64,000 nucleotides of DNA from an uncultured Bdellovibrio sp. (GCA_964490895.1 CAZBEI010000065.1:1192-65191); one strand, 5' to 3'; positions 7,131-22,286 are shown, numbered from the stretch's first letter. The notes: generated by a model from the letters alone, not told the origin. Made by a program: numbers and translations.

Positions 7131-7138
7131 ATCAGCTC

Positions 7139-8266: not shown

Positions 8267-8275
8267 TTTTTCTCC

Positions 8276-9316
8276 TTAAAAATCAAGCGCAAACATCAGA
8301 CGGAATAAATCATTGGGTTTTTCATCAAGTGCTTCGAGGTTCCATTGGTATTCGAGTATAAATTTCATAACGTCGATCGGAAATACAAAAGACAAATCAA
8401 AAGAGTGTGAATCTTGTTGGCTTTTTTGCTGTGAATTATTAATGTAAGTCCCATAGCGAATTCGAGGCTCAACAAAACCTAAAGCATTTGTTGCCAACTC
8501 AATATAATCTCCATATTTTCTAAAATTTCCTAATAATCCCTGAAAAATTTTAGCATCAGCAAAACCCAGTCCTAATTTTAGGTTTTTTAAAACCGGGAGA
8601 TTGACAAGATGATAATCAGTCCATAGGTCTCCTCCTAAAAGAACGAGAGGTTTTCCAATTTGCCACTGTGTGTAGTAACCCGATAGAATGAGTTTAATCT
8701 TTTCGAATGGAAATCCTGAGAGCCTGAGTCCCAGGGCCTGGGTGTTTGGGTCCGCGGGCAAGTTTAATTCTACGTCTTTGTCAGCTTTAGGTTCTCCAAA
8801 ACCATTGACGAGATAAGTATCTAAATTCCATTGATTTATCTCAAAGGTAAGTATGGCCCCATTTTCAGCCCAAATATTGGGAAACATCACTCCTTTTGCA
8901 GCAAATCCTTGTACACCCCCATAAAGATGATGGTAACGAGAAGTATCTCCAAAAGGGATCAGCACTTTTCCAAGATACGCTATTATTTTTTCAGTTGGCT
9001 TATAAATAATTTCTAAAAAACTTTTTGAGATGATTTCTCCTAAAAACGAAACTTTTTCTGAAGCATTGAGTTTTAAAAAAACTAAGAAATGATTATTTTT
9101 AAAGGTGTCATTTTGTCTGATCAGAGAAGGATTTTGATAGGGAGAAATTTCGTAAGACAAATCTAGTCTCCCTATCAATTTGAAAGGGATTTTTTCAGCT
9201 TGTGTGTTTACGTGTTTTGGAACTATTTCGGGAGAGTCTAGGTCTAAACTTTCCTCAGCCCATCCTTCAGAGAGCAGTAAAAAAACAAATAAGCTTAGTA
9301 AACCTATTTTTTTCAT
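8276..9316 (-). CDS. Putative outer-membrane beta-barrel protein
   Basis: Signal peptide, alternating amphipathic strands, C-terminal ..FALDF ending in Phe. Confidence 0.5.
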   Translation of the reverse strand: MKKIGLLSLFVFLLLSEGWAEESLDLDSPEIVPKHVNTQAEKIPFKLIGRLDLSYEISPYQNPSLIRQNDTFKNNHFLVFLKLNASEKVSFLGEIISKSFLEIIYKPTEKIIAYLGKVLIPFGDTSRYHHLYGGVQGFAAKGVMFPNIWAENGAILTFEINQWNLDTYLVNGFGEPKADKDVELNLPADPNTQALGLRLSGFPFEKIKLILSGYYTQWQIGKPLVLLGGDLWTDYHLVNLPVLKNLKLGLGFADAKIFQGLLGNFRKYGDYIELATNALGFVEPRIRYGTYINNSQQKSQQDSHSFDLSFVFPIDVMKFILEYQWNLEALDEKPNDLFRLMFALDF

Positions 9317-9325
9317 TCCGTACTC

Positions 9326-10012
9326 CTAAGGCTCTTTTTTGAGAAGAGTCTCACCCACTCTTTTCCAATCACCAGGGGCTGTAAATTTTAAAGTATTCAT
9401 TATTTTTTGTATGTTAGAAAGTATGTCGTTTGCCCTGTAAATAGTGACCTCATAGTTATCTCCTTGGTCTTTTGATATTCCAGTCCACACAAAAAACCAC
9501 TTGTGCGGTACTCCTTTTAGTTGATAGACAAAACTAATAAGGTGGGGGGATTGTGGGTCGTTTGGATTTTCTTGCCAGTCTCGACTCCATATTTGGCTGG
9601 ATTCGAACTCATTTTTTCCCATGATTTTTTGATCAGTATGAATCACTAATCGTTGCACGTCATTTTGTTCATAGTAAATATCTGCATTCCCTGTGATTTT
9701 AAAGGTGTGCCCTAGGGTCGGAGTGAGTTCAATTTTTTCAGTTTTAAATCTTAAAGTGGGATCAGGAGACATCACTTCGTCTACTTTTAGGTCATAGGCA
9801 CCTTCGAAAGAAGAAGCGAGCTTCAGATCTCGATCTGTGAGTATCCCAATTAATCGCCCCTCTTCTTGGACTGGAAGGTGTCGAATTCGATACTCCCTCA
9901 TCATCTCAAGTGCTTTTTTTAAACCGATATCATTCCCAATAGAATGTGGCATTGGGGTCATGTATGTTTGAATTTGAGGTATTTGTTTCATCTTTCTTTC
10001 TCCTTGAGTCAA
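9326..10012 (-). CDS. CBS-pair domain protein with uncharacterised C-terminal domain
   Basis: The N-terminal ~130 aa show two CBS motifs (HLPVQEEGRLIGILTDRDL). First gene of the minus-strand operon. Confidence 0.55.
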   Translation of the reverse strand: MTQGERKMKQIPQIQTYMTPMPHSIGNDIGLKKALEMMREYRIRHLPVQEEGRLIGILTDRDLKLASSFEGAYDLKVDEVMSPDPTLRFKTEKIELTPTLGHTFKITGNADIYYEQNDVQRLVIHTDQKIMGKNEFESSQIWSRDWQENPNDPQSPHLISFVYQLKGVPHKWFFVWTGISKDQGDNYEVTIYRANDILSNIQKIMNTLKFTAPGDWKRVGETLLKKEP

Positions 10013-10184
10013 ATCTTTAAATGATTCTTAAAGAGCATTAGCAAATTCTAGGCCATTCGATACAAGCTACAAAAAATTGAAATAAAAAATAGGACGGGAC
10101 ATTTTGGCGCAGAAGTTGTTTTTTATGTCCCATCTCAACTTTTAAAAGAAATCCATTTGGCCTTGTTTACTCTAGCCATATAAG

Positions 10185-10200
10185 TGGCATTGATTGTGCA
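10185..10200 (+). promoter_or_regulatory. Sigma-54 (-24/-12) promoter-like motif TGGCAT-N5-GTGCA upstream of uspA
   Basis: GG and GC separated by the canonical 10 nt. Lies 37 bp upstream of the ATG at 10237. Confidence 0.45.
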
Positions 10201-10236
10201 TACTCTTCTTAAAAATACGGGAGGTGTTAAGACAAT

Positions 10237-11152
10237 GAAAATTCTTTGGTGCTTAGATGTATTTGAAGAAAAAAATGATATTTACAATCGCACAATCAAT
10301 GTTTTAGAGAATATTACAAAAGAACACGCAAGCTCAATTGAACCAGTCTACCTATTGAGCCCAGAGCAATTCGAGCTGCCTGTTGAGTTTACTCCGTCTT
10401 GGGTAGAGCACTATCATCCAAAAGCAAAAAAAGCAGCCGAGAATAAACTTAAGGAGCATCCCCTGCCTGGTCTTTTGCCTATAAAAATTATAGGCCACGA
10501 AAAGCCCTCAATTTCGGGGTCCATTACTTCGTTGCTCAATTATGCTAAAAAAGAAAATGCGAACCTCATTGTAGTTGGATCCCACGGCAGAAGGGGGCTC
10601 TCAAGACTTTTCGTGGGGAGCTTTGCAGAGGCACTGCTCCTTCGGTCTCCTCTTCCTATTATGATTGTGGGACCCCACTCCATAAATGTTGACGGATTTA
10701 AAGAAATCCTATTCCCCACAGATTTGGGTGAAAATTTTTATGGTGTTTTTAGAGAAGTTTTAAAATTAGCTGGGCAATTAAAAACAAAGCTTACTTTACT
10801 TCATGTCATTCCTAACCCCATTGAGCCAGTGGTACAAAGTGGCGCTTTTTTATTAGGTGGAGGCTGGGTACCGATTTCAGGTTATCTGGAGAAAGAGGAG
10901 AAAAAGCAGAGAGAAATTGCTGAGCGTTGGATCAGAAAAGCAAAAAGCCATGGGATAGACGCTCAGTTTGTTTTAGATTATTCAAAACATGGGGTATTAT
11001 CTGCTATCCACGAGCATGCAAAAAACCATTGTTTTATTGCAATGGCTGCTCAAAGTGGGCCTCTTTCGGCTGCATTTTTAGGAAGTATCACCAGGCAAGT
11101 TGCAAGGTCAGCTTCTTGTCCAGTATGGTTAGTAAGAGAAAATGTGTTATAA
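10237..11152 (+). CDS. Universal stress protein, tandem UspA domains
   Basis: RBS GGGAGGTG 9 nt upstream of the ATG at 10237; the track ORF starts earlier at 10184. Two Usp domains with ATP-binding-like G-x2-G-x9-G(S) (VVGSHGRRGLSRLFVGS). Confidence 0.7.
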
Positions 11153-11162: not shown

Positions 11163-12599
11163 ATGATTACTCCCACAAAAGGAAAGGTCCTCATAGTAGA
11201 CGACGACATGGAGATGAGATCACTTCTTGAGGATTATCTCAAGAGTGAAAACTTTCAAGTAAAAAGCTTTGCAAATGGCGTGGAGGCCCTTGAAGACTTA
11301 GAACTCCAGAGCTCTGAGACTGATTTAATTATTTCAGATATTAAGATGCCCCAAATGGATGGGTTAGAACTTACTTCAAAGCTCACGCACATTTTACCCA
11401 AAATTCCGATTCTATTAATCACTGCTTTTGGAAGCATCGAAACAGCACTTGAGGCCATGAAAAGAGGCGCATTTCATTATATTGTAAAACCTTTCAAACT
11501 TGCCGAAATGGCCGTGCATATTGAGAAGGCTTTAGAACATAGAAGACTTCAAAGAGATAACGAGGCTCTTCGAAAAGAGATAAAACAGTCCTGGGGTTTA
11601 GGAAATATCCTTGGAAAAAGCCAGGCCATGAAATCGGTCTTTGATTTAGTAACTCGTGTTTCTCAAACAACCGCGAATGTGCTCATCATGGGTGAAAGCG
11701 GGACAGGCAAAGAAATGGTAGCTCGCGCCATACACAAAACGGGCCCCAGGGCTCAAAAGCCTTTTGTTGCTATCAATTGCACGGCTATTCCCGAAACTCT
11801 TTTAGAGTCAGAGCTCTTTGGACATGCAAAAGGGTCTTTTACGGGAGCGCATCAAAGAAAACAGGGACTCTTCGAAGAGGCTGAGGGTGGGACTCTCTTT
11901 TTAGATGAGATTGGGGATATGGATGGCACTCTTCAATCTAAACTACTCAGAGTGATTCAAGAAAAGAAAGTCAGAGCTGTTGGAGACAACACGCTTCGAG
12001 ACATCAATGTAAGAATTATTGCAGCTACTCATAAAGACTTAAAAGCAGCGATGAAAGATGGCCGCTTTCGTGAAGATCTTTACTACCGCTTGAGCGTTAT
12101 TCCTATTTTGATTCCGCCCTTAAGGGAACGAAAAGAAGATATCCCATTATTGGCAGAGCATTTTTTAAAAAAATACTCTGCTACAAATAACACAAATGTG
12201 CGTGGATTCACAAAAAGCGCGATGAATAAACTCCTCACCCTGCGTTGGGAAGGGAACGTGCGCGAACTTGAAAATATTATTGAAAGGGCTGTTGTTTTGA
12301 GTTCTGGCACTTTCATTGACGAAAGGGACTTGCCCTCTCCAGAAACTCAAAATCCAGAACAGTTTTTTTCTTCTTCTACAGGAGACTTCCCTACGATCGA
12401 TCAACTCGAAAAAAGATACATGGGTCTCGTGCTCGAAAAATCAGGAGGCAGAAAAGACAAAGCAGCACAGATTTTAGGGATTAATAGAAGGACTCTCTAC
12501 CGCAAAGAAAGAGAATATGGCTTTATTACAGAGCAAGGCGATGAAATCCAAGAACAAAGTGATAAAATCCAAGAGGAGGAGGAGACTAAAAAACTTTAA
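11163..12599 (+). CDS. Sigma-54-dependent Fis-family response regulator (NtrC-like: REC + AAA+ sigma-54 activator + HTH)
   Basis: REC domain with phospho-acceptor Asp (LIISDIKMP). Walker A GESGTGKE. GAFTGA-type loop GSFTGA. C-terminal Fis-like HTH. 10-bp gap after uspA, so cotranscribed. Confidence 0.85.
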   Translation: MITPTKGKVLIVDDDMEMRSLLEDYLKSENFQVKSFANGVEALEDLELQSSETDLIISDIKMPQMDGLELTSKLTHILPKIPILLITAFGSIETALEAMKRGAFHYIVKPFKLAEMAVHIEKALEHRRLQRDNEALRKEIKQSWGLGNILGKSQAMKSVFDLVTRVSQTTANVLIMGESGTGKEMVARAIHKTGPRAQKPFVAINCTAIPETLLESELFGHAKGSFTGAHQRKQGLFEEAEGGTLFLDEIGDMDGTLQSKLLRVIQEKKVRAVGDNTLRDINVRIIAATHKDLKAAMKDGRFREDLYYRLSVIPILIPPLRERKEDIPLLAEHFLKKYSATNNTNVRGFTKSAMNKLLTLRWEGNVRELENIIERAVVLSSGTFIDERDLPSPETQNPEQFFSSSTGDFPTIDQLEKRYMGLVLEKSGGRKDKAAQILGINRRTLYRKEREYGFITEQGDEIQEQSDKIQEEEETKKL

Positions 12600-13776
12600 A
12601 CCAAATTGTAAAAACACTTCCCACTCCCAATTCACTCAGGACAGAAATTTCGCCACCCATTTCCTTTAGCAATTGAACAACAATTGCTAAACCCAAGCCT
12701 GTACCTTCTCCCACGTCTTTTGTAGTAAAAAAAGGTTTAAAAAGCTTATTTGTATTTTTTGGGTCAATCCCGCAACCGGTGTCCTTGATTTCAATGGCCA
12801 CTTTTTGCCCATGAACACTTGCTTTAATGTACAGTTGGTGTCCTGTTTTTCTTCCATCTCGAATCGCCTTATGAATGGCTTGAATCGCGTTCATCACTAA
12901 ATTTAAAATCGTTTGTTCTAAACGCCCATAATCTGCTTTTACTTTTATTTCGTCTGAGATGTCTGTCTTAATTTCTACTCCATCTTCTTTAAGATTTTGC
13001 CCTACGAGAGACAAAACCTCGTGCACAACTTGTGTAATGCTCACTTCTTCAATACGAAAATCACTAGTCCTTCGCCCCATTCTTAAGAGTGAACGAATGA
13101 GCTTAGAAATTTTATCAATTTGAGAAATAATAATTTCCAAATCTTTTTTAGGTAATTCGTCTTTGGACTGTAATATTAAAAACTCAGCTCTTCCACGAAT
13201 CACTCCAAGCGGGGTGCCCACTTCGTGCGCAAGACCACTCGAGAGCAACCCAATGGAGGCAAGTCGGTCTTGATGAAAAATTTTTGCCTCAAGTTCTTTT
13301 TTCTGAGTCATGTTTAGAGCCACACCCATGTAGCCTAAAATTTCGCCCATTTCTGACTTAAATGGAGTAATGGTCAAAAATACGGGCACATACGTTCCAT
13401 CTTTGGCACGATTGACGAGCTCGCCTTTCCAATGTGCAATTTTAGGGTCCCGAATTTTTGACCACATTTCTCTGTAAAACTCTTTGGATTGGAACCCAGA
13501 ATGCAAAAGTCCGGGAGTTTGCCCAATGGCTTCTGCATTAGAATAACCATAAGTTTGGCTCCAAGCAGGGTTGACGTAGACCAGATGACCGTCTTTGTCA
13601 CTAATCATGATGGTTTCATTGCTGTCTTCGACACATCTAAAAAAGATATTTTTGGGATCGAAATTAATCTCTAAGGGCATGAGTCCTTTTAACATCATTT
13701 CGACGTTCTTGACAGCACTTGTCTTATAAGGACGAGAAAAAATGTCCTTTTTTTTTGATTTTTGGGACAAAAACAC
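12586..13776 (-). CDS. Soluble PAS-domain sensor histidine kinase
   Basis: PAS domain (MISDKDGHLVYVNPAWSQTYGYS), HisKA H-box LAHEVGTPLG, and HATPase_c G-boxes (DTGCGI, GTGLGL). Its 3' end overlaps the response-regulator stop by 14 bp, convergent. Confidence 0.8.
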   Translation of the reverse strand: MFLSQKSKKKDIFSRPYKTSAVKNVEMMLKGLMPLEINFDPKNIFFRCVEDSNETIMISDKDGHLVYVNPAWSQTYGYSNAEAIGQTPGLLHSGFQSKEFYREMWSKIRDPKIAHWKGELVNRAKDGTYVPVFLTITPFKSEMGEILGYMGVALNMTQKKELEAKIFHQDRLASIGLLSSGLAHEVGTPLGVIRGRAEFLILQSKDELPKKDLEIIISQIDKISKLIRSLLRMGRRTSDFRIEEVSITQVVHEVLSLVGQNLKEDGVEIKTDISDEIKVKADYGRLEQTILNLVMNAIQAIHKAIRDGRKTGHQLYIKASVHGQKVAIEIKDTGCGIDPKNTNKLFKPFFTTKDVGEGTGLGLAIVVQLLKEMGGEISVLSELGVGSVFTIWFKVF

Positions 13777-13814
13777 CTCCCCCTGGTTTTCATGAAGCCT
13801 GAAACCGGGTCACT

Positions 13815-13830
13815 TGGTTTCACTTATGCA
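13815..13830 (+). promoter_or_regulatory. Sigma-54 promoter-like motif TGGTTT-N5-ATGCA upstream of cytochrome c
   Basis: GG..GC spacing is correct. Shares TTATGCA at -12 with the nirK motif. Lies 40 bp upstream of the ATG at 13870. Confidence 0.4.
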
Positions 13831-13869
13831 ACTTTGGTGCTAAAGTAAAAGTCTAATAGGAGATCAAAA

Positions 13870-14226
13870 ATGCACAAAATAAAATGCTTGGTTGGATTGG
13901 GTTTTATATTTTTGTATCAGGGAGCTTCGGCAGGTCCTCCAAAGTCTTCGCCCGAACTTATTGCAAAAGGAAAAGCCTCTTATGTGACCAACTGTTTGAC
14001 CTGTCATGGCGAAAATGGCGATGGCAATGGTCCTGCTGGACAGTACATGAATCCAAAACCTAGATCCTATACAAAAGATAAGTTTAAAAAGGGAGAGAAA
14101 CCTGAACAGGTTTTTAAAACCATTACAGCAGGGATTGATGGAACAGCAATGACTGGGTTTGGTCATTTGCCAGAAGACGAAAGATGGGGCCTTGTGTATT
14201 ACGTGCTTTCGTTTAAGAAAAAATAG
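13870..14226 (+). CDS. Class I c-type cytochrome (secreted, mono-heme), likely electron donor to NirK
   Basis: Signal peptide, CLTCH haem motif, distal Met region. RBS GGAG 9 nt upstream. Confidence 0.7.
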   Translation: MHKIKCLVGLGFIFLYQGASAGPPKSSPELIAKGKASYVTNCLTCHGENGDGNGPAGQYMNPKPRSYTKDKFKKGEKPEQVFKTITAGIDGTAMTGFGHLPEDERWGLVYYVLSFKKK

Positions 14227-14230
14227 CTAC

Positions 14231-14590
14231 TTACTCCAATTGTTTTATTTCTAGTTCGGGCATCTCTATCAAAAAAGCACGTGAAATCTCGCCAAAAGAA
14301 GTACCTTTTTGATAGACAAAGCTGGCCGCAGATTGTTCTGGAGCAAACCTCAAAGTTTTTGAATCCACAGCAGAAATTTTAGAAAACGCTTTCTTGAGGA
14401 GAGGAATTTGTTCTTTTGAGTGAAAGCCTTTGATTTCAATGACTACATAATGATTTCTAGTTTTTTCTGCCATTCTTTTATTTTTGTAAGAATAAACAGA
14501 AGCGGCCTTATCCCCCACACAAAAACCACAGGCAATGGCCTGAACGTGTGCCACTAAAAACAAAAACCCAGCCAAATAGATTATTTTCAT
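14231..14590 (-). CDS. Hypothetical small lipoprotein (CGFC motif)
   Basis: 119 aa, signal peptide with AIACGFC. No recognisable domain. Confidence 0.35.
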   Translation of the reverse strand: MKIIYLAGFLFLVAHVQAIACGFCVGDKAASVYSYKNKRMAEKTRNHYVVIEIKGFHSKEQIPLLKKAFSKISAVDSKTLRFAPEQSAASFVYQKGTSFGEISRAFLIEMPELEIKQLE

Positions 14591-14725
14591 ACCTCTCTCT
14601 TATTCATAAAATGGGCCAAGCAAAAAACCTAATTATTTTACTCTCTCAAGCTTAAAACAGAACCACAGATGGGACTAAATGTCACTCGCATGAGGCATAT
14701 TTTCTTCCTGCCGTGGCTTCTATTT

Positions 14726-14746
14726 TTTAAATCTAACGGATTTAAA
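14726..14746 (+). promoter_or_regulatory. Perfect 8-N5-8 palindrome TTTAAATC-taacg-GATTTAAA upstream of nirK (candidate regulator or IHF-type site)
   Basis: Seen directly in the sequence, 12 bp upstream of the -24 element of the nirK promoter motif. Confidence 0.3.
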
Positions 14747-14757
14747 GGGTTTTTTTT

Positions 14758-14773
14758 TGGCAAGGTTTATGCA
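14758..14773 (+). promoter_or_regulatory. Sigma-54 promoter-like motif TGGCAA-N5-ATGCA upstream of nirK
   Basis: Canonical GG/GC spacing, 31 bp upstream of the ATG at 14804. Confidence 0.45.
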
Positions 14774-14803
14774 TTTAATAAGACTTAATAGGAGGGTTTT
14801 ATC

Positions 14804-15829
14804 ATGCGTTTGGCCATTTGTTTTTTTGTGTTTATGTCTGGAAATTTATATGCGGGGGATAATCCTGACCCCTCAAAAATGATTTTTGGCCCACCCCCAG
14901 CCATTGTTCATAATAAAATTTTAGAAGGTCCTGTGATGCAGGGAGCAACGCTCCTTCCATTTGCTCCTAAACTCTCTGGTGAGCGAACCCTCAACGTTCG
15001 CTTGGATGTCACTCACAAAGTTCAAGAACTTGCAGATGGAGTTAAAATGATGGTTTGGACGTTTGGAGATTCTGTGCCAGGTCCAACTATTCGAGTCAGG
15101 CAGGGGGATCGAATTAAATTCACAATGGCAAATCGCAGCACTGAAACTGCAGCCATTACTCCTCCCATGCCTCATTCGATGGATTTTCATGCCTCTATGG
15201 TGAGCCCACAAGACAAATTTAGACCCATCTCACCGGGGCAAACATTAGAATTTGAATTCGTCGCAAATTATCCAGGGGTATACATGTACCACTGTGGAAC
15301 ACCCATGATTTTACATCACTTAGCAATGGGAATGTACGGCGCTGTCATTGTAGAACCCAAAGAAGGGTATCCCACAAAAGTAGACCGCGAGTATGTTCTT
15401 GTTCAGTCAGAATTTTATCCCCAAAAAAATGTGAATAAAAATGGAAAGAAAACAAGTGTGGTCGAATTAGACATGAACGCAGTTATCCACAAACAGGCCT
15501 CTATTGTTGCTTTTAATGGAAAGGCCTTTCGCCACCGTGACGAACCGCTCAAGGCAAAAGTAGGAGAAAGAGTGAGGCTCTTTGTGCTCAATGCAGGACC
15601 CAGTGGGACTTCGAGTTTTCATGTTGTTGGAACCATTTGGGACCGTGTTTGGCTTGAGGGAAATCCAAGCAATGAACTTCGAGGAGGTCAATCTGTGCTT
15701 TTAGGCGCAAGCAACTCAGCTATCGTTGAATTTATTATTCCAGAAAAAGGAAAATACATTATGGTCGATCATGAATTTGCTGACGCTAATGCAGGAGCAC
15801 TGGGATTAATTGATGCAACAGGAGATTAG
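14804..15829 (+). CDS. nirK: Copper-containing nitrite reductase NirK
   Basis: 341 aa with signal peptide. Cu-ligand blocks PHSMDFHA and YMYHCGTPMILHHLAMGMYGAVIVEP match the type 1 / type 2 copper sites of NirK. RBS AGGAGGG. Confidence 0.85.
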   Translation: MRLAICFFVFMSGNLYAGDNPDPSKMIFGPPPAIVHNKILEGPVMQGATLLPFAPKLSGERTLNVRLDVTHKVQELADGVKMMVWTFGDSVPGPTIRVRQGDRIKFTMANRSTETAAITPPMPHSMDFHASMVSPQDKFRPISPGQTLEFEFVANYPGVYMYHCGTPMILHHLAMGMYGAVIVEPKEGYPTKVDREYVLVQSEFYPQKNVNKNGKKTSVVELDMNAVIHKQASIVAFNGKAFRHRDEPLKAKVGERVRLFVLNAGPSGTSSFHVVGTIWDRVWLEGNPSNELRGGQSVLLGASNSAIVEFIIPEKGKYIMVDHEFADANAGALGLIDATGD

Positions 15830-15842
15830 CACAGAGTCAAAC

Positions 15843-16022
15843 GCAGCATGAGGGTTCTTCGGCTGCACTCTGTTCAACAGCACGGTGAATATAGTATTTA
15901 AAACACGGCTCACATCGTGCCGAGATTGCCCAGACCATCGCTGTGAGGATCTTAAATTTTTGAGGCGCTTCCCCATCAGAAAAAATAGCCCTCTTCCTCA
16001 TTTGGTCAATAGGCGTTGGTAG
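15843..16022 (-). pseudogene. Fragment of a second carboxymuconolactone-decarboxylase (CMD/AhpD-like) gene, in frame immediately after the stop of the upstream CMD gene
   Basis: Translates to LPTPIDQMRKRAIFSDGEAPQKFKILTAMVWAISARCEPCFKYYIHRAV-EQSAAEEPSCCV. This is about 90% identical to 45253-45627 but lacks the first ~24 codons and has a 39-codon internal in-frame deletion. Confidence 0.55.
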
Positions 16023-16619
16023 CTACTCTGGCTCTAAACGGGTCGGACAAAACCCCTGAGGTGGAATTTTTAGGGCCGCATTAAACTTACTCGAAAGGTT
16101 CTGATAAGCGATGAGAGCTGTCAACTCAATGATTTGGTTTTCATCAAAATGTATTTTTAAACGCTCAAAGAGTGTGTCCTCAATTTTTTTGTCAGATCGG
16201 GTCATTGCCTCCGTGTAAGCTAACGCTGCTCTTTCCTGTTCAGTATACGCAGGATCGCTTTCATAATTTGCTAAAGCCAGTATTTTTTCCATGGGCACCC
16301 CACGCTTCTGTAAAAGAGCACTATTAATATCAATACAAAAGGAGCAGTGATTAATCTGCGAAACACGCACAGTCACAAGCGATCTCAGTGCGGGATTTAG
16401 CGGAGAATTTTTTCTGTCGATTGCACTATAGAGAAATTGAAGCCCCATCAAAAGACGAGGCGAACGTCCCCAAAGTCGTGTAGGCTCAAGACTCGATCCA
16501 TACTTTTTTTTCTGTGCTCGAAAAATTAAACGCACCCAAAATGGGTACTCCCTTTCTGGTTTAGCTGCAATTCTCATAGGCTCCCCTTTCATTTCTGCAA
16601 GAATATCACTTTCTCTCAC
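16023..16619 (-). CDS. Carboxymuconolactone decarboxylase (CMD/AhpD-like) family protein
   Basis: 198 aa. HCSFCID CxxC-type motif and helical CMD-family pattern. Confidence 0.6.
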   Translation of the reverse strand: MRESDILAEMKGEPMRIAAKPEREYPFWVRLIFRAQKKKYGSSLEPTRLWGRSPRLLMGLQFLYSAIDRKNSPLNPALRSLVTVRVSQINHCSFCIDINSALLQKRGVPMEKILALANYESDPAYTEQERAALAYTEAMTRSDKKIEDTLFERLKIHFDENQIIELTALIAYQNLSSKFNAALKIPPQGFCPTRLEPE

Positions 16620-16738
16620 ACTTATATGTGCAAATATTTTTCAAGTCTCTTAATTATGGCGGGACATTTTGCCGCAAAATTTGTTTTTTTGTCTCATCAT
16701 GATTTTAAAAAACTCTTTTACTGCTTAAATAATTACAT

Positions 16739-16754
16739 GGCACTGATTATGCAT
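16739..16754 (+). promoter_or_regulatory. Sigma-54 promoter-like motif TGGCAC-N5-ATGCA upstream of the PLP-decarboxylase gene
   Basis: Near-consensus -24/-12. Lies inside a ~170-bp block duplicated from the uspA upstream region. Confidence 0.5.
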
Positions 16755-16821
16755 GTTAATCTTAAAAATAGGGGGCGAACATAACAAATTCTTTGGTACT
16801 TCATTCATTTGAAGCAAAAAA

Positions 16822-18546
16822 ATGACATCAAAGTGTAATACAAAAGACATTGCACTCAAGGGATTTTTCTTGGGCCCACAAGCTGAAAATGGCCCTTGGG
16901 TGTTAGAATTTATTCAAAGAGTTTTTGAGCGTTGGTTTAAGTGGAGAAGATCTCTTTATCCTGCAGATGGGAAAGGGATATCAAAATCAGATCAAAACAC
17001 CTCTGACTTTTTAGAAAGAAATCAGAATTTCAAGCTGCAGCTGGAGCGCCTCCTTTTACGTTTTGAAAACGAATTGCCAAAATTTTCTCCTCGGTACATG
17101 GGTCATATGTTTTCTGAAATTTCTCTCCCCGCACTGTTTGGACATATTGTGACCTTACTTCACAATCCCAATAATCTTTCTGGAGAATCTTCTCGAGTTG
17201 GGACTCAACTCGAAAACGAAGCCATCGGAATGTTAGCCCAAATGGTTGGTTATTCGGGAGCATGCAAAGGTCATTTTACTTCTGGGGGAACCCTTGCAAA
17301 CTTTGAAGCCATCATTCGCTCTCGAGCTCGTATTTTTTCTTGGCTTGAGCAGGGAGCCCTTGTTAAGCAAAACAACCTAAAAGAATTTGATCTTTTTTCT
17401 GCTTCACACATGGGTTGGGAATGTTTTGATCGATATCCTAAAACATTCGATGGACTCCATCTCTCTGAAAGTAATCCCTGGGAGCTTGCAAAAAAAATCG
17501 GATCTATTTTTCAGACTCCTTTTAGTGGCGGGGTCTTGCTCGTTCCAGAGAATAAACATTATTCGTGGAAAAAAGGAGTGTCTATTTTAGGACTAGGCGA
17601 TGAGGCTTTTTGGCCAATTTCATTAAACTCAGAAGGAAAACTTTGCACCCAGAGTCTCAATCAAAGAATCCATCAGGCAAGAAAAGAAAATCGGCCTATT
17701 TTTATGGTTGTCTCTGTCGCTGGAACTACGGAGCTTGGAGAAATTGACCCTGTTTCAGAAGTTCAGGAAATTTTAAATCATTGGAAAACAAACCATGGAG
17801 TTCATATTTGGCATCATGTGGATGCTGCTTATGGTGGATTTTTTTGCACACTCAAAAACCAGAACAAAAACCTCGCGGCACTTTCACAAGTAGACTCCAT
17901 TACGTTAGACCCACATAAATTAGGATATGTTCCGTTTTCATCGGGAGCTTTCTTAGTCAAAGAAAGGAGAAATTATTACATCAAGTCTTACGAAACTCCT
18001 TATCTCCAGTTTAATGAAAATGAAGACCCAGGTCCATTTACAATCGAAGGTTCTAGATCCGCAGCAGGAGCGGTGGCCACTTGGTTGACTGGGAAAACAA
18101 TTGGATTTGATGAAAATGGCTATGGACGAATTTTAGGTCGCACTTTGGACATTAAGCAAAATTTAGAAAAATTACTTCAAAAATCAAATTTGCCCATTCA
18201 AATCGCACCCCACACAGATACAAATATTCTTTGCTTTTGCGTGGTGGCCGCTCAAGGAGAACTCCTTTCGAAAACAAATGATAAAACCTTACACATCTAT
18301 GAGGCTCTTTCTGCAAAGGCAAGAGGCCCATTTATAGTCTCAAAAACAAAGCTTTATTTTAAGTCCTACAGACAGTACCTGGAGTCTTTTATTGGCTCAT
18401 GGCATGGAAAGATCGATCAGGACTCCCTTGTTTTAATCCGAATGTGCTTAATGAATCCCTTTTTTGATTCTGTAGAAATGGACGTCCAGTTTTCTCGAGA
18501 ATTTGTAGAGTGTATACGAAATTTGACTAAATATGAGGTAGGATAA
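16822..18546 (+). CDS. Pyridoxal-phosphate-dependent decarboxylase (group II, fold type I)
   Basis: 574 aa. Contains SGGTLANFEAI and DPHKLGYVP, the PLP-lysine block of group II decarboxylases. Confidence 0.7.
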   Translation: MTSKCNTKDIALKGFFLGPQAENGPWVLEFIQRVFERWFKWRRSLYPADGKGISKSDQNTSDFLERNQNFKLQLERLLLRFENELPKFSPRYMGHMFSEISLPALFGHIVTLLHNPNNLSGESSRVGTQLENEAIGMLAQMVGYSGACKGHFTSGGTLANFEAIIRSRARIFSWLEQGALVKQNNLKEFDLFSASHMGWECFDRYPKTFDGLHLSESNPWELAKKIGSIFQTPFSGGVLLVPENKHYSWKKGVSILGLGDEAFWPISLNSEGKLCTQSLNQRIHQARKENRPIFMVVSVAGTTELGEIDPVSEVQEILNHWKTNHGVHIWHHVDAAYGGFFCTLKNQNKNLAALSQVDSITLDPHKLGYVPFSSGAFLVKERRNYYIKSYETPYLQFNENEDPGPFTIEGSRSAAGAVATWLTGKTIGFDENGYGRILGRTLDIKQNLEKLLQKSNLPIQIAPHTDTNILCFCVVAAQGELLSKTNDKTLHIYEALSAKARGPFIVSKTKLYFKSYRQYLESFIGSWHGKIDQDSLVLIRMCLMNPFFDSVEMDVQFSREFVECIRNLTKYEVG

Positions 18547-19142: not shown

Positions 19143-19676
19143 TCATAAAAGATAAACCAATCCGTAAAGCAAGGGCCATAAACCAACCACAAAAAACCAA
19201 TACAAGCTTGTTGCATGGATAAAGTCTTCATTTTTAAATTCTACAAGAGCAATGCTGATTACAGCTAATCCAGCTAGCACATGAATCGCATGTGCTCCAA
19301 CAATCAGATAAAAGAAAGCGCCATAAATGCTTGAGGATGTTGTCAGCCCGTATCTCAGGAGACGCGCCCACTCGAATCCCTGAAAAGTTACAAAAAAAGA
19401 ACCCAATAAAATCGTAACGGCAAGCCAATGTCTCAACATCGTTTTTAATGCCAAGTACATCGTTACCGCACTCAATAAAAGAATCATTGTGTTAATAGCA
19501 GTTCTCTCAATCGGCAGACGTGGCTGATCAAAAGGTGGCCAGACAGCGGTGTTTGCTCGAGCAACGAGATAGGCGCTGATTAGGCCAGCAAAAAATAATG
19601 TCTCCGTTGCTAAGACCAAAAGCACTCCGAGGCTACTATTTGAAATTCTATACTTTTTTCTCACCAGGGTATTCAC
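19143..19676 (-). CDS. Second, short haem-copper oxidase subunit III-like protein
   Basis: 177 aa, five TM helices. HAIHVLAG, FEW and YWFF blocks shared with subunit III. Confidence 0.65.
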   Translation of the reverse strand: MNTLVRKKYRISNSSLGVLLVLATETLFFAGLISAYLVARANTAVWPPFDQPRLPIERTAINTMILLLSAVTMYLALKTMLRHWLAVTILLGSFFVTFQGFEWARLLRYGLTTSSSIYGAFFYLIVGAHAIHVLAGLAVISIALVEFKNEDFIHATSLYWFFVVGLWPLLYGLVYLL

Positions 19677-19682
19677 AATGAT

Positions 19683-19994
19683 TTACCTCGCTATTTTCAA
19701 ATCCACATAGACAATATCGGGTAGAACCCCGAAATACAGAAATACTAAGCACAGAGCTCCGAATCCCACGATTCCCCATACGATCTTTGGCTCCCACCGC
19801 AGATGCATGAAGTTTCCCAACACCAGCAATGTTTTTATGATGGCCAATGAAAAAATGCCTGCTACGGCCATTCTCTTGTTTCCCATAAATCCAATTGCTA
19901 GACTGACTGCCAAAAGCGCAACCAATACTGCCCAGACCATGATGTAGTTGGGATGTCCGTGGTAATTAGATTTCATATTTTCCTCCATTGCCAT
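19683..19994 (-). CDS. Cytochrome c oxidase subunit IV (prokaryotic caa3-type, CoxD/CtaF)
   Basis: 103 aa, three TM helices. Sits between the two subunit III genes; start abuts the coxC stop. Confidence 0.6.
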   Translation of the reverse strand: MAMEENMKSNYHGHPNYIMVWAVLVALLAVSLAIGFMGNKRMAVAGIFSLAIIKTLLVLGNFMHLRWEPKIVWGIVGFGALCLVFLYFGVLPDIVYVDLKIAR

Positions 19995-20579
19995 TCACTT
20001 CGCGATATAAAGAAGCGGAAATAGAAAAATCCAAACGATGTCGACGAAATGCCAGTAAAGGCCGACCATCTCAACCCGATGCAAATTCTCTCCTTTTGCT
20101 GCCTGTTTCATGATCACGAACATGGCAATCATTCCAGCCAACACGTGTGTTGCATGCAGGCCAGTCATTAGATAATAAAAACTCCAAAATAGATTTGATG
20201 TAAACGTAAACCCATGCGAAATTTCAGAGTTGTATTCGATCGCCTTAACAATCAAGAACAGAAGTCCCATGAGAATCGTAGCCGTCATATATTTTACAAC
20301 ACGTTTACGATTTCCATAAGTGGCGGCTTGGTGGGCAAGCACCACGCTTAGGCTACTCGTGAGCAAAACCAGTGTATTGAGCGCTCCCAGTGGAGTAGAC
20401 GTGTGCTCTGCATACTCACCCCAATGAGGAAATCTTGTACGGTATAATATATAGGTACAGATCAAACCTCCAAAAATGACGACTTCGGATGCGATCAACC
20501 ACCACATTGCAATTCTTCCATTGGGAACATCTGAAATCGTCGGATGGGGACTCACTTCGCTTGTGATTGCATCGCTCAT
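19995..20579 (-). CDS. coxC: Cytochrome c oxidase subunit III
   Basis: 194 aa. Conserved LHATHVLAG and YWHFVD motifs. Confidence 0.8.
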   Translation of the reverse strand: MSDAITSEVSPHPTISDVPNGRIAMWWLIASEVVIFGGLICTYILYRTRFPHWGEYAEHTSTPLGALNTLVLLTSSLSVVLAHQAATYGNRKRVVKYMTATILMGLLFLIVKAIEYNSEISHGFTFTSNLFWSFYYLMTGLHATHVLAGMIAMFVIMKQAAKGENLHRVEMVGLYWHFVDIVWIFLFPLLYIAK

Positions 20580-20594
20580 ATTTTTTTCCTCAAT

Positions 20595-22280
20595 TTAGCT
20601 GGGTACATTTTGAGGCCACCAGTCTTCGCTCCGGCCTGGCACACTGTACTCATATGCTCCTCGATAAATGCATGGAACCGTTTCGAAGTTTCCGTGTGGA
20701 GGTGGTGACGACACTGTCCACTCCAGCGTATTGGCTTGCCAAGGATTTTTACCCGCTTCTTTTCCTTTGAAGTAACTGACTATGAAATTGAATACAAAAA
20801 TCAACTGAGCTGTGATCATGCAGATCGCAGATATTGTTGCAATCTCCCGGTACCGACGAAGCTCAGGGGTCATCAGAGAAGGCCATGCCGAATAATCAAA
20901 GATGCGTCGATGTTCGCCTGCGAGACCCCCAAAAAATAAAGGCATGACCATGGTATTGAAGAAAATAGTCGTCAACCAGAAGTGAACCTTTCCCAAAGTT
21001 TCGGAGAGCATTTTTCCGGTAAACTTTGGATACCAATAATAAACAGCGGCAAATCCACCAAAAACGACAGTTGGGATCAAAGTATAATGAAAGTGCGCGA
21101 CTACAAAATAAGTGTCATGAGCGTAGATATCAAAAGCGCTCGATCCAAGGTATATCCCGGTTACTCCTCCAAGCAAAAACTCCCCGATAAAGCCAAGAGC
21201 AAATAACATGGGCGATGTAAACTGGATCGAGCCCTTCCATAATGTTGCAATACAAGAAAAGATAATCACAGCAAATGGAATCGAAATCATGATTGTAGTA
21301 ATACTAAAAAATGTGGCCATCCTCGGATCAATGCCTGCGACAAACTGATGGTGTGCCCAAACGATGAACGAAAGCACACCCGCGATCATCGTCGAATAAA
21401 TGATCATTTTATAACCAAAAATCGGTTTTCTCGAAAATGTTGAGAGAATTTCGGCGAGAAATCCAATAGCAGGGAGCAATAAAACATAGACCTCGGGATG
21501 CCCAAAAAACCAAAACAAATGTTGAAACAAAATGGGGTCGCCACCCACTGCTGGATTATAAAATCCTGTCCCTACAGTTCGATCAAGTAAAAGCATCACA
21601 GCGCCAGCAATCAAAGGTCCTACCGAAAACATAAAAATCAATATGGAGATAATGAACATCCAAATTACAACCGGCATTCGAAACCAACTCATGCCTGGCG
21701 CTCGCATGTTAAAGGAAGTCACAAGAAAATTGATTCCACCCATCAAAAAAGCGATGAACTCAAGGGCAACAGCGAGAATCCAAAGATTGCCACCCATCCC
21801 AGAAAAAAAATCAAGTCGTCCATTGTATCCACCAGCAGAAAGGGGTGGATAGGCAGTCCAACCCCCACCAAACGCTCCACCAGGAGCCAAAAATGACAGA
21901 GTTAGAATGACAGTGCTTAGAAAAAAAACCCAGTATGACATCATATTCAAAGTGGGAAATGCCATGTCTTCAGTACCAATCATGAGCGGAATGAGGAGAT
22001 TTCCGAAGCCCGCTAAAAGCAGTGGCATAGCCACCCAAAAAATCATAATCGTACCGTGCATTGTAACAAAAGTGTTGTACTGGCTAGCATCAAGCGAACC
22101 AAAACCCGGGATGGAGTGTCCTGGATACGCAAGTTGCATACGAAAAACATAAGACAAGTATCCACCGACAAATGCCATCACGAGCGCTGTGAGGATGTAC
22201 TGAGTACCGATTACTTTATGATCTGTAGAAAAAATATATTTTTTCCAGAAACTAGTGTGCGAAGTTGACATTCTAGACAT
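20595..22280 (-). CDS. coxA: Cytochrome c oxidase subunit I (haem-copper oxidase catalytic subunit)
   Basis: 561 aa, 12 TM helices. GHPEVY, WAHHMF-like HH pair and FFGHPEVY blocks. Confidence 0.9.
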   Translation of the reverse strand: MSRMSTSHTSFWKKYIFSTDHKVIGTQYILTALVMAFVGGYLSYVFRMQLAYPGHSIPGFGSLDASQYNTFVTMHGTIMIFWVAMPLLLAGFGNLLIPLMIGTEDMAFPTLNMMSYWVFFLSTVILTLSFLAPGGAFGGGWTAYPPLSAGGYNGRLDFFSGMGGNLWILAVALEFIAFLMGGINFLVTSFNMRAPGMSWFRMPVVIWMFIISILIFMFSVGPLIAGAVMLLLDRTVGTGFYNPAVGGDPILFQHLFWFFGHPEVYVLLLPAIGFLAEILSTFSRKPIFGYKMIIYSTMIAGVLSFIVWAHHQFVAGIDPRMATFFSITTIMISIPFAVIIFSCIATLWKGSIQFTSPMLFALGFIGEFLLGGVTGIYLGSSAFDIYAHDTYFVVAHFHYTLIPTVVFGGFAAVYYWYPKFTGKMLSETLGKVHFWLTTIFFNTMVMPLFFGGLAGEHRRIFDYSAWPSLMTPELRRYREIATISAICMITAQLIFVFNFIVSYFKGKEAGKNPWQANTLEWTVSSPPPHGNFETVPCIYRGAYEYSVPGRSEDWWPQNVPS

Positions 22281-22286
22281 TCTCCT

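What the first reader, a model, noticed from the sequence alone, without database searches (positions are those of the whole stretch)
13815..15829. Cytochrome c and NirK each preceded by a sigma-54-like promoter sharing TTATGCA; perfect 8-5-8 palindrome abutting the nirK promoter
The motifs TGGTTTcacttATGCA (cytochrome c) and TGGCAAggtttATGCA (nirK) share an unusual -12 element. The palindrome TTTAAATC-N5-GATTTAAA at 14726-14746 sits only 12 bp upstream of the nirK -24 element. That is too close for an enhancer, but well placed for a repressor such as an NO-sensing regulator, or an architectural site. Sigma-54 control of nirK is uncommon; FNR/NnrR or NsrR control is the norm.
Basis: partly seen in the sequence, partly recalled or inferred. 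Interest (0 to 1): 0.5.

Follow-up and report, generated by a model that had tools for sequence, protein, structure and literature searches.

The report
Sigma-54 regulon controlling copper nitrite reductase

Summary
All three sequence observations are correct. TGG-N6-TTATGCA occurs three times in the window against 0.14 expected, and the third copy (16738) was missed. The sigma-54 reading of nirK is well supported. I found a 15-bp palindrome, GGGACA-N3-TGTCCC, 70-110 bp upstream of five -24/-12 promoters in the window, including nirK (14671-14685). The same motif sits upstream of nirK, nnrS, USP, activator and kinase genes in related contigs (29 motif-promoter pairs against 2.25 in shuffles). 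Two other nirK genes (78% and 69% identical) keep a -24/-12 element 29-32 nt before the ATG. No FNR, DNR, NnrR, NsrR, NorR or IHF boxes are present. The cytochrome c promoter is a weaker case. The 8-5-8 palindrome is real but is not conserved. Such palindromes are roughly as frequent as chance predicts, and it matches no known operator. As RNA it extends to a 13-bp hairpin followed by U9, so a weak terminator is a live alternative to a repressor site. Verdict: a new member of the sigma-54/activator class of regulon, inferred from sequence and comparison only.

The parts
9326..9991 (-). CBS-domain gene, probably the first gene of a minus-strand operon that runs on towards FMN_bind and ApbE genes. 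Candidate regulon member.
   Evidence: Pfam CBS. ATG at 9991 after an AAGGAG ribosome-binding site. Downstream genes.
10040..10055 (-). -24/-12 promoter TGGCCTAGAATTTGCT for the CBS operon.
   Evidence: Weight-matrix score 13.4 bits, intergenic and correctly oriented. Paired with the motif at 10096.
10096..10131 (.). Upstream activator sequence shared by the divergent CBS and USP promoters: GGGACATTTTGGCGC, plus a half-site ATGTCCC 21 bp further on.
   Evidence: L081 has the same GRGACAT-N22-ATGTCYC architecture.
10185..10200 (+). -24/-12 promoter TGGCATTGATTGTGCA for the USP-activator operon, which implies autoregulation.
   Evidence: 13.4 bits. GGAGG ribosome-binding site and ATG at 10235 downstream.
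10235..11152 (+). Universal stress protein gene with tandem Usp domains.
   Evidence: Pfam Usp, two stretches. Start re-assigned from the sequence.
11163..12599 (+). NtrC/AtoC-type sigma-54 enhancer-binding response regulator (REC, AAA+ Sigma54_activat, HTH_8) with a GSFTGA loop.
   Evidence: Pfam Sigma54_activat at 5.7e-73. NCBIfam hits to AtoC, NtrC and ZraR, all below their cut-offs. Sequence. 54% identical to the activator next to nirK in L081.
12586..13698 (-). Soluble PAS histidine kinase, the probable partner sensor. Its PAS domain is of the flavin/LOV/NifL type.
   Evidence: Pfam PAS, HisKA and HATPase_c. Solved relatives: ZraS kinase core, PpSB1-LOV, MmoS, NifL PAS1 and Aer.
13734..13778 (.). 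Two weak motif-like sites upstream of cytochrome c: GAGAAAAAATGTCCT and GGGACAAAAACACCT.
   Evidence: Each has one good half-site only.
13815..13830 (+). Candidate -24/-12 promoter of cytochrome c, TGGTTTCACTTATGCA. This is the weakest promoter of the set.
   Evidence: 8.3 bits. Its leader, AGTCTAATAGGAG, resembles the nirK leader.
13870..14226 (+). Class I cytochrome c, probable electron donor to NirK.
   Evidence: Pfam. 56% identical to the cytochrome c gene that follows nirK in L081.
14231..14590 (-). Secreted 119-aa protein whose mature N-terminus begins CGFC. It has an HMA-like fold and is a candidate copper chaperone for NirK. A homologue lies beside nirK in most of the close relatives that were examined.
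   Evidence: Model and Foldseek search. Invariant C21, C24, D27.
14603..14618 (-). Sigma-54-like element TGGCCCATTTTATGAA with GA in place of GC at -12, 13 nt before the ATG of the 119-aa gene.
   Evidence: The same GGCAY-N6-TGA-N13/14-ATG layout is in L081, L088, L169 and L170.
14671..14685 (.). Upstream activator sequence GGGACTAAATGTCAC, about 105 bp before the predicted nirK start and about 85 bp before the divergent promoter.
14722..14758 (+). As plus-strand RNA it is a 13-bp A-U/G-U hairpin (14722-14750) followed by a T9 run (14750-14758) that abuts the -24 GG.
14758..14773 (+). -24/-12 promoter of nirK, TGGCAAGGTTTATGCA. GG is at 14759-60 and GC at 14771-72, so the predicted start is near 14784. 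AGGAGG lies at 14790-95.
   Evidence: Conserved in L170 (TGGCAAGCCATATGCA) and L171 (TGGCACGTGGACTGCA).
14804..15829 (+). nirK, copper-containing nitrite reductase of the AniA/Geobacillus type.
16661..16753 (+). Activator motif (GGGACATTTTGCCGC plus TGTCTC) and -24/-12 promoter TGGCACTGATTATGCA (16738-16753). This region is a 78%-identical duplicate of the USP upstream region.
16822..18546 (+). Pyridoxal-dependent decarboxylase gene driven by the duplicated promoter.
   Evidence: Pfam Pyridoxal_deC. NCBIfam tyrosine-decarboxylase-like, below cut-off.

Best explanation
Proposed mechanism. nirK, and probably the cytochrome c gene, are transcribed from sigma-54 (-24/-12) promoters. Both belong to a local regulon run by the adjacent two-component system. 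A soluble histidine kinase with a flavin-type PAS domain senses oxygen or redox state, or possibly NO. It phosphorylates an NtrC-family enhancer-binding response regulator. That regulator binds a 15-bp palindrome, GGGACA-N3-TGTCCC, often present as two copies 20-22 bp apart, centred 70-110 bp upstream of the start site. From there it remodels the closed sigma-54 complex by DNA looping.

Predicted targets in this window: the CBS-domain operon, the USP-activator operon (autoregulation), cytochrome c, nirK, the divergent gene for an HMA-like candidate copper chaperone, and a pyridoxal-dependent decarboxylase.

The palindrome. TTTAAATC-N5-GATTTAAA lies in the looping segment between the activator site and the -24 element. 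Its role is open. I rank chance or generic AT-rich flexible DNA first, a weak terminator or insulator second, and a protein site third.

Shown directly by sequence and comparison: the motifs, their positions, their conservation and their co-occurrence. Inferred: that this particular activator binds this palindrome, what signal is sensed, and that transcription depends on sigma-54.
For: 1. Three exact TGG-N6-TTATGCA matches against 0.14 expected, all intergenic and facing genes. Five or six of the 11 best weight-matrix hits fall in gene-upstream zones that make up 9% of positions, P about 0.002.
2. The activator (REC, Sigma54_activat, HTH_8, GSFTGA loop) and the PAS kinase are immediate neighbours.
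3. GGGACA-N3-TGTCCC with up to 2 mismatches: 5 observed against 1.37 expected. Three of the five lie 71-83 bp from motif centre to the GG of -24/-12 elements.
4. The same motif plus -24/-12 layout occurs in relatives. L081 has it before the activator, kinase, USP and CBS genes and the nirK operon. L166 and L169 have it before nnrS. L169 has a perfect copy before the nirK operon. L170 has it before nirK. Over the window plus 8 loci there are 29 motif-promoter pairs against 2.25 in shuffles.
5. A promoter of nirK's own is conserved 29-32 nt before the ATG in L170 (78% NirK identity, 62% GC) and L171 (69% identity).
6. The alternatives are absent. Sigma-70-like hits are no more frequent than in shuffles and none is well placed. 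No FNR, DNR, NnrR, NsrR, NorR, NarL, NtrC, NifA or IHF boxes were found.
7. Independent support that sigma-54 can drive nirK: strong -24/-12 elements of up to 17.8 bits, about 65 nt before the ATG, in about a dozen Balneolaceae nirK loci.
Against: - No transcription data exist for this organism. rpoN is not in the window, so its presence is inferred from the activator and the promoters.
- The weight matrix was written from memory of the published consensus.
- The cytochrome c element is weak (8.3 bits, TGGTTT at -24). Its upstream sites are half-sites, and it cannot be tested by conservation because cytochrome c sits downstream of nirK in relatives.
- nirK has only one activator site, with 2 mismatches, where most regulon promoters have two.
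- In several relatives the nirK operon promoter has GA, not GC, at -12, which is non-canonical.
- The activator-to-motif assignment rests on co-localisation only. In L084 and L166-L170 no activator gene lies on the fetched piece.
- The kinases next to the activator in the window and in L081 are only 28% identical.
Confidence: 0.65

Rival explanations
1. The palindrome is an operator for a separate regulator, for example an NO- or nitrite-sensing repressor. Bound next to the -24 element, it would gate the sigma-54 promoter.
For: It is a perfect 8-5-8 dyad with 11 nt between it and the TGG. It is unique in the window. Dual control of NO-related sigma-54 promoters has been proposed elsewhere (hmp of P. 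stutzeri, PMC1274295).
Against: It is absent from all related loci, including the two with the same divergent gene layout. As a class such palindromes are about as frequent as chance predicts (34 against about 21). It does not match the NsrR, FNR/DNR, NnrR, NorR or NarL consensus. No regulator gene other than the two-component pair lies nearby.
Confidence: 0.12
2. The palindrome is the stem of a weak intrinsic terminator or insulator on the plus strand. It would stop transcripts arriving from the cytochrome c promoter, which would run antisense through the 119-aa gene, just before the nirK promoter.
For: As RNA the stem extends to 13 uninterrupted pairs through G-U pairs that exist only on the plus strand, and a U9 run follows directly. 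Free energy is -7.6 kcal/mol, z = -2.2. Among 112 T-runs of 7 or more it is one of the few with a hairpin abutting the run. Cytochrome c has no terminator of its own before the convergent gene.
Against: The stem has a single G-C pair and is weak for a terminator, and the scan tool does not list it. It lies 500 nt beyond the cytochrome c stop codon. It is not conserved.
Confidence: 0.2
3. The palindrome is an architectural element: an IHF/HU-type site or intrinsically flexible TTTAAA DNA. It would help the loop form between the activator site at about -105 and the polymerase.
For: It is centred near -48, between the activator site and the -24 element, where IHF sites sit in many sigma-54 promoters (established knowledge). 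Some sister promoters also carry TTTAAA-type palindromes in that segment: window USP CTTTTAAAAG, and L081 activator promoter CTTTAAAG twice.
Against: No match to WATCAANNNNTTR at up to 1 mismatch. The TTTAAA feature is missing from several regulon promoters: L081 kinase and CBS promoters, L170, and cytochrome c.
Confidence: 0.15
4. The -24/-12 promoters are real, but the GGGACA-N3-TGTCCC palindrome is bound by a different factor, or a different activator drives nirK. On this reading the neighbouring two-component system is not the nirK regulator.
For: The assignment is by co-localisation only. Several related nirK contigs show the motif without an activator gene on the fetched piece. The motif loosely resembles RegR/PrrA-type boxes such as TGCGACATCGGCGGC (PMC4064962 Table 1).
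Against: In both genomes where the activator is seen, the motif precedes the activator's own sigma-54 promoter, and in L081 the kinase's promoter as well. Tandem sites 20-22 bp apart at -70 to -110 are typical of enhancer-binding proteins. The pairing with -24/-12 elements is 13-fold over shuffles.
Confidence: 0.15
5. The -24/-12 matches are chance look-alikes, and nirK and cytochrome c are transcribed by sigma-70 under another, unseen regulator.
For: GG-N10-GC patterns are short. The looser TGG-N9-TGCA gives 14 matches against 8.5 expected. The cytochrome c element scores only 8.3 bits.
Against: 3 exact extended matches against 0.14 expected. Positional conservation in L170 and L171. The activator lies next door. 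No good sigma-70 promoter is present.
Confidence: 0.08

Closest known systems
NorR (sigma-54-dependent NO-responsive activator) regulons of beta- and gamma-proteobacteria (norVW, norAB, hmp, nnrS)
   Same: Sigma-54 promoters with tandem palindromic upstream sites in front of nitrogen-oxide stress and denitrification genes. nnrS is a shared target. The regulator gene is clustered with its targets (PMC1274295).
   Different: NorR has a GAF sensor domain and no kinase partner, whereas this activator is a phospho-receiver response regulator paired with a PAS kinase. NorR sites are GT-N7-AC and none is present here. In the paper read, NorR is assigned control of nir genes only in Ralstonia species and together with DNR; elsewhere its targets are NO-detoxification genes.
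NtrC/AtoC/ZraR-type two-component enhancer-binding proteins
   Same: Identical domain order (REC, AAA+ sigma-54 interaction, Fis-type HTH). The kinase core is most like ZraS/AtoS. Upstream sites lie at about -70 to -110.
   Different: All NCBIfam hits are below the curated cut-offs, so it is not an orthologue of any named one. The site is GGGACA-N3-TGTCCC rather than TGCACC-N5-GGTGCA. The targets are respiratory and stress genes.
Redox two-component systems PrrBA/RegSR/ActSR and NtrYX, which control nirK in alpha-proteobacteria
   Same: A redox-type sensor kinase and a regulator with a Fis-type HTH controlling nirK, its electron donor and related genes (PMC4064962). RegR boxes such as TGCGACATCGGCGGC loosely resemble GGGACATTTTGGCGC.
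   Different: From my own knowledge, PrrA and RegR lack the AAA+ module and act at sigma-70 promoters, and their kinases are membrane proteins. The resemblance between the boxes is a lead, not a test.
RegSR-NifA cascade of Bradyrhizobium diazoefficiens
   Same: A sigma-54 activator (NifA) is required for maximal nap, nirK and nor expression (PMC4064962 introduction).
   Different: The text I read does not report a direct -24/-12 promoter at nirK. NifA sites (TGT-N10-ACA) are absent here. The main control there is FixK2/NnrR.
NsrR, NnrR, DNR and FNR control of nirK (the usual pattern)
   Same: The same target gene and a comparable gene set (nirK, nnrS, norB).
   Different: None of their boxes is present in either upstream region, and the promoter class differs.

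Membership tests
Sigma-54 (RpoN) -24/-12 promoter | GG and GC dinucleotides separated by exactly 10 nt | tested here: met
   nirK 14759-60 and 14771-72. Cytochrome c 13816-17 and 13828-29.
Sigma-54 (RpoN) -24/-12 promoter | Good fit to the extended consensus TGGCAC-N5-TTGCW | tested here: inconclusive
   nirK scores 14.2 bits, fourth of all positions in the window. Cytochrome c scores only 8.3 bits. The matrix was written from memory.
Sigma-54 (RpoN) -24/-12 promoter | Intergenic, oriented toward a gene, at leader distance from the start codon | tested here: met
   30 nt (nirK) and 39 nt (cytochrome c) from motif end to ATG, each with an AGGAG ribosome-binding site. Enrichment of top hits in upstream zones, P about 0.002.
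Sigma-54 (RpoN) -24/-12 promoter | Conservation of the element in orthologous loci | tested here: met
   L170 TGGCAAGCCATATGCA at 29 nt, and L171 TGGCACGTGGACTGCA at 32 nt. Not testable for cytochrome c.
Sigma-54 (RpoN) -24/-12 promoter | A cognate enhancer-binding protein with a GAFTGA-type loop, and upstream activator sites | tested here: met
   Activator at 11163-12599 with GSFTGA. Motif at 14671-14685 and at sister promoters. Binding itself was not tested.
Sigma-54 (RpoN) -24/-12 promoter | rpoN present in the genome; start site 12 nt after the GC; expression lost without rpoN | not testable with these tools
   No rpoN was found among the window ORFs that were scanned. No transcript data are available.
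NorR regulon | GAF-AAA+-HTH activator and three GT-N7-AC sites | tested here: not met
   The activator has a REC domain, not GAF. No GATGT-N7-ACATC-type sites at up to 2 mismatches.
   No match at up to 4 mismatches in 14591-14803 or 13699-13869.
FNR/DNR/NnrR box | TTGAT-N4-ATCAA or TTGCG-N4-CGCAA upstream of the promoter | tested here: not met
   No match at up to 2 mismatches.
IHF site | WATCAANNNNTTR between the activator site and the promoter | tested here: not met
   No match at up to 1 mismatch. By eye the palindrome has 3 mismatches.
Intrinsic terminator | Stable G+C-rich hairpin directly followed by a U-run | tested here: inconclusive
   A U9 run directly follows a 13-bp stem, but the stem has 1 G-C pair and -7.6 kcal/mol.
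Copper-containing nitrite reductase NirK | Two cupredoxin domains with the type 1 and type 2 copper ligands and the catalytic Asp and His | tested here: met
   Aligned to Geobacillus NirK 3wkq at E 2.7e-69. PHSMDFH, YHCGT..H..M, FHVVG and DHEF are kept. TIGR02376 scores 197 bits, below its cut-off of 296, as expected for this divergent clade.

The most novel reading that the evidence does not exclude
A previously undescribed two-component sigma-54 regulon is the main switch for nitrite reduction and NO/hypoxia-stress genes in a whole lineage of Oligoflexia-like bacteria, replacing the NnrR/DNR/NsrR logic known from Proteobacteria. Its parts would be a flavin-PAS kinase, an NtrC-type activator and the GGGACA-N3-TGTCCC enhancer. 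Its targets would be nirK, its copper chaperone and electron donor, nnrS, globin, USP and CBS proteins. A sub-class of its promoters carries GA instead of GC at -12 and would start transcription at the start codon, giving leaderless mRNA.
Probability: 0.4. Interest if true: 0.6.

Novelty: new member of a known kind. Interest (0 to 1): 0.5.

Why it matters
NirK produces NO, the committed and toxic step of denitrification and a control point for N2O emission. Its regulation is known almost only from Proteobacteria, where it runs through FNR/CRP-family factors, NsrR and sigma-70-type two-component systems.

This cluster gives a concrete, testable case of a different logic. It names a kinase, an activator, a 15-bp enhancer motif and about six target promoters. 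The same logic recurs in uncultured relatives across 41-64% GC. In a different form, with ATTGCA-N4-TGCAAT sites, it also recurs in Balneolaceae.

The motif could be used to predict nitrite and NO-stress regulons in metagenome-assembled genomes of these poorly studied groups. The finding also flags a small, narrowly distributed HMA-like secreted protein as a likely NirK copper chaperone.

Tried and rejected
- My first pattern search used one N too many (TGG-N10-TGCA). It gave chance-level hits and I discarded it.
- Looking up the window's NirK by exact sequence found no contig. The genome scan found nothing closer than 64% identity. The metagenome scan added only three close loci.
- The contigs for P0016, P0002 and one P0015 contig, which have the same divergent layout as the window, returned no DNA. 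I therefore could not test the palindrome in the nearest layouts.
- The palindrome as an NsrR, FNR, NnrR, NorR, NarL or IHF site: no matches.
- The palindrome as a repeated element: no other copy in the window or the loci.
- TTTAAA palindromes as a constant feature of regulon promoters: inconsistent.
- A sigma-70 promoter for nirK or cytochrome c: nothing better than shuffles.
- Known RNA families or tRNAs in the window: none.
- An activator gene next to the Balneolaceae nirK (L067): none on the fetched piece.
- A word-based homologue search for the 119-aa protein found only the protein itself. The exhaustive HMMER search found 31 clusters.
- Literature searches for sigma-54 control of nirK found only the indirect NifA effect in Bradyrhizobium.
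Full report
**1. Checking the observation**

- TGGTTTCACTTATGCA lies at 13815-13830, 39 nt before the cytochrome c ATG at 13870.
- TGGCAAGGTTTATGCA lies at 14758-14773, 30 nt before the nirK ATG at 14804.
- TTTAAATC-TAACG-GATTTAAA lies at 14726-14746.

In both promoter-like motifs the GG and GC dinucleotides have the canonical sigma-54 spacing. My first search used a wrong spacing and I ignored it.

With the right spacing, TGG-N9-TGCA gives 14 matches against 8.5 expected. The third copy, TGGCACTGATTATGCA at 16738, lies upstream of a pyridoxal-dependent decarboxylase gene (16822-18546).

The gene calls are sound.
- The 341-aa product aligns over its whole catalytic core to Geobacillus NirK (E 2.7e-69) and keeps all copper-ligand motifs. 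It falls below the TIGR02376 cut-off, as divergent AniA-type NirKs do.
- The 118-aa product is a class I cytochrome c.

**2.

Directly upstream of cytochrome c lie two regulatory genes.
- A soluble PAS histidine kinase occupies 12586-13698 on the minus strand.
- An NtrC/AtoC-type sigma-54 enhancer-binding response regulator occupies 11163-12599. Its domains are REC, Sigma54_activat (5.7e-73) and HTH_8, and it has a GSFTGA loop.

The kinase core is most like ZraS. Its PAS domain is most like flavin-binding PAS/LOV domains: PpSB1-LOV, MmoS, NifL PAS1 and Aer.

I scanned the window with a sigma-54 weight matrix written from memory of the published consensus. The best hits include six intergenic, correctly oriented sites:

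| Position | Strand | Downstream gene | Score (bits) |
|---|---|---|---|
| 27268 | + | unknown protein | 15.0 |
| 16738 | + | decarboxylase | 14.8 |
| 14758 | + | nirK | 14.2 |
| 10185 | + | USP-activator operon (true ATG at 10235) | 13.4 |
| 10040 | - | CBS-domain gene (ATG 9991) | 13.4 |
| 29625 | + | unknown protein | 12.9 |

Five or six of the 11 best hits fall in gene-upstream zones that make up 9% of strand-specific positions (P about 0.002). The cytochrome c element scores only 8.3 bits.

**3. An enhancer motif**

The USP and decarboxylase upstream regions share GGGACAT-N21/22-(A)TGTCYC. Comparison with relatives refined this to a 15-bp palindrome, GGGACA-N3-TGTCCC, usually in tandem 20-22 bp apart.

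In the window, matches with up to 2 mismatches number 5 against 1.37 expected. Three of them lie with their centres 71-83 bp upstream of the GG of -24/-12 elements:
- 10096, serving both divergent promoters (USP and CBS);
- 14671, GGGACTAAATGTCAC, upstream of nirK;
- 16661, upstream of the decarboxylase.

Cytochrome c has only two weak, half-site-like copies, at 13734 and 13764.

The nirK site is centred about 105 bp before the predicted nirK start. It is also about 85 bp before a divergent sigma-54-like element that faces the 119-aa gene. This is the same bidirectional layout as at the CBS/USP region.

**4. Related loci**

The window's NirK has one identical database entry, on an NCBI contig of 66,762 bp, and then relatives at 79% identity or less. 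The nearest named relative is an 'Oligoflexia bacterium' assembly (L081/L082, 41% GC).

In L081 the gene order is CBS, activator, PAS kinase, 121-aa protein, nirK, cytochrome c, then nnrS on the opposite strand.
- Its activator is 54% identical to the window's.
- Its cytochrome c is 56% identical.
- Its small protein is 41% identical.

L081 carries the same motif plus -24/-12 layout before the CBS, activator, kinase and USP genes (two USP genes in fact), and carries the motif before the nirK operon.

Higher-GC relatives show the same pattern.
- L166 and L169 have tandem motifs plus AGGCAC-N5-TTGCT before nnrS.
- L169 has a perfect GGGACAGGATGTCCC before its nirK operon.
- L084, L167, L168 and L088 have motif copies before theirs.

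Over the window plus eight loci, motif-promoter pairs at 40-100 bp number 29 against 2.25 in shuffles.

The most direct evidence bears on the finding itself. Two other nirK genes that, like the window's, have their own promoter keep a -24/-12 element at the same place.
- L170: TGGCAAGCCATATGCA, 29 nt before the ATG, with the same ATGCA -12 element and a motif copy 70 bp upstream.
- L171/L172: TGGCACGTGGACTGCA, 32 nt before the ATG.

**5. Alternatives for the promoters**

Sigma-70-like hexamer pairs in 13600-16900 are no more frequent than in shuffles, and none is well placed for nirK or cytochrome c. Neither upstream region contains an FNR/DNR, NnrR, NsrR, NorR2, NarL/P, NtrC, NifA or IHF consensus at the tolerances tried.

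The literature I could search assigns nirK control to NnrR, DNR/FNR, NsrR, and the PrrBA/ActSR/RegBA and NtrYX systems. It confines sigma-54 to NorR targets and to an indirect NifA effect in Bradyrhizobium (PMC1274295; PMC4064962; searches).

Sigma-54 control of nirK is therefore unusual relative to what is published. The genomic evidence suggests it is not rare: about a dozen Balneolaceae nirK loci carry very strong -24/-12 elements of up to 17.8 bits. They have their own tandem ATTGCA-N4-TGCAAT sites.

**6. The palindrome**

It lies between the activator site and the -24 element, centred near -48. Three points argue against a dedicated operator.
- It is not conserved in any fetched locus.
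- Perfect inverted repeats with 8-bp arms are common in this AT-rich window: 34 against about 21 in simulations.
- It fits no known operator tested.

As plus-strand RNA the stem extends through G-U pairs to 13 uninterrupted pairs (14722-14750) and is followed at once by U9. The free energy is -7.6 kcal/mol with z = -2.2. Among 112 T-runs in the window it is one of the few with an abutting hairpin.

It could therefore be a weak terminator or insulator. It would stop transcripts from the cytochrome c promoter, which otherwise has no terminator before the convergent 119-aa gene. The stem has only one G-C pair, so this remains a minority reading.

An architectural role is also possible, but the E. 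coli IHF consensus does not support it. I rank the readings as follows: chance or generic flexible DNA about 0.35, terminator about 0.2, architectural about 0.15, specific regulator about 0.12.

**7. Mechanism proposed**

- Inferred: the flavin-type PAS kinase senses redox state or oxygen, or possibly NO.
- Inferred: it phosphorylates the activator.
- Inferred from co-localisation, autoregulatory placement and typical enhancer geometry: the activator binds GGGACA-N3-TGTCCC.
- Shown as sequence and conserved: the sites lie at -70 to -110 from sigma-54 promoters of nirK, its electron donor, its candidate copper chaperone, stress proteins and the regulator's own operon.
- In relatives the target list also includes nnrS, a globin and further kinases. 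This looks like a hypoxia and nitrosative-stress regulon.

**8. Verdict**

The sigma-54 reading is well supported for nirK and plausible for cytochrome c. The repressor reading of the palindrome is not supported.
- In kind this is an ordinary sigma-54/enhancer-binding-protein system. It has an undescribed activator specificity and an unusual target, so I class it as a new member of a known kind.
- Everything functional is inference from sequence and comparison. rpoN itself is not in the window.

Noticed in passing
window 14231-14590 (-); homologues in L081:5620-5985, L084:5593-5970, L166:2848-3219, L168:1539-1916, L169:5602-5982, L088:767-1135: A small secreted protein whose mature N-terminus begins CGFCxGD lies next to nirK in most of the close relatives examined. 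It has no Pfam or NCBIfam family. A single-sequence AlphaFold model (pLDDT 70 overall, about 80 in the C-terminal half) has a beta-alpha-beta-beta-alpha-beta fold. Its best Foldseek hits are nearly all HMA copper-chaperone domains (ATP7A MBD3, MerP, CsoZ, Atx1). Only 31 clusters exist among 1.84 billion representatives. C21, C24, D27, V32 and Y33 are invariant. It is a likely periplasmic copper chaperone for NirK.
   Followed up: partly
window 14603-14618 (-); L081:5591-5606; L088:~739-754; L169:~5573-5588; L170:~278-293 (-); L084:5527-5542; L168:~1481-1496: Upstream of the CGFC gene, seven loci share GGCA(C/T)-N6-TGA, a sigma-54-like element with GA instead of GC at -12. In five of them the ATG follows 13-14 nt after the -12 base, which would give an almost leaderless mRNA. 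The spacing is conserved although the surrounding sequence cannot be aligned.
   Followed up: partly
window 16651-16850 versus 10086-10290: The decarboxylase upstream region is a 78%-identical duplicate of the USP upstream region. The copy includes the enhancer motif, the -24/-12 promoter and a degenerate copy of the first 15 or so USP codons. This looks like a promoter captured by duplication.
   Followed up: partly
window 27175-27310 and 29525-29665: A second pair of duplicated promoter regions, 84% identical. Each has a strong -24/-12 element (TGGCATATTATTTGCA and TGGCCTATTACTTGCA) and a shared upstream AAGCAAGATTGTGACAAAAA. They face unknown proteins and a 1224-aa molybdopterin oxidoreductase with a 4Fe-4S partner. 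This is probably a different sigma-54 regulon, with no activator gene seen in the window.
   Followed up: partly
L015, L025, L028, L031, L036, L052, L059, L067, L075, L094, L122, L123 (Balneolaceae), about 65 nt before the nirK ATG: Very strong sigma-54 promoters (up to 17.8 bits) precede nirK in Fodinibius, Gracilimonas, Halalkalibaculum and relatives. They have tandem ATTGCA-N4-TGCAAT sites upstream and a conserved AAGACA-N4-TGTCTT palindrome just downstream of the -12 element. In Fodinibius roseus the operon is nirK-nirV-senC-cupredoxins, with no activator gene within 6 kb.
   Followed up: partly
window 13728-13756 (+): A hairpin, AAGGAC-N10-GTCCTT, followed by a T9 run lies upstream of the cytochrome c promoter and overlaps the weak enhancer-like site. 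The scan tool lists it as terminator-like, although no plus-strand gene ends there.
   Followed up: no
window 5170-9991 (-): The CBS gene behind the 10040 promoter is followed on the same strand by unknown proteins, an FMN_bind protein and an ApbE flavin transferase. These are possibly accessory redox components co-regulated with nirK. An aa3-type cytochrome oxidase cluster (19143-23270) and molybdenum-cofactor genes (38592-43668) lie further along.
   Followed up: no
window 12586-12599: The activator and kinase genes are convergent and overlap by 14 bp at their 3' ends, unlike the co-directional arrangement in L081. The kinases next to the activator in the two genomes are only 28% identical.
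   Followed up: no
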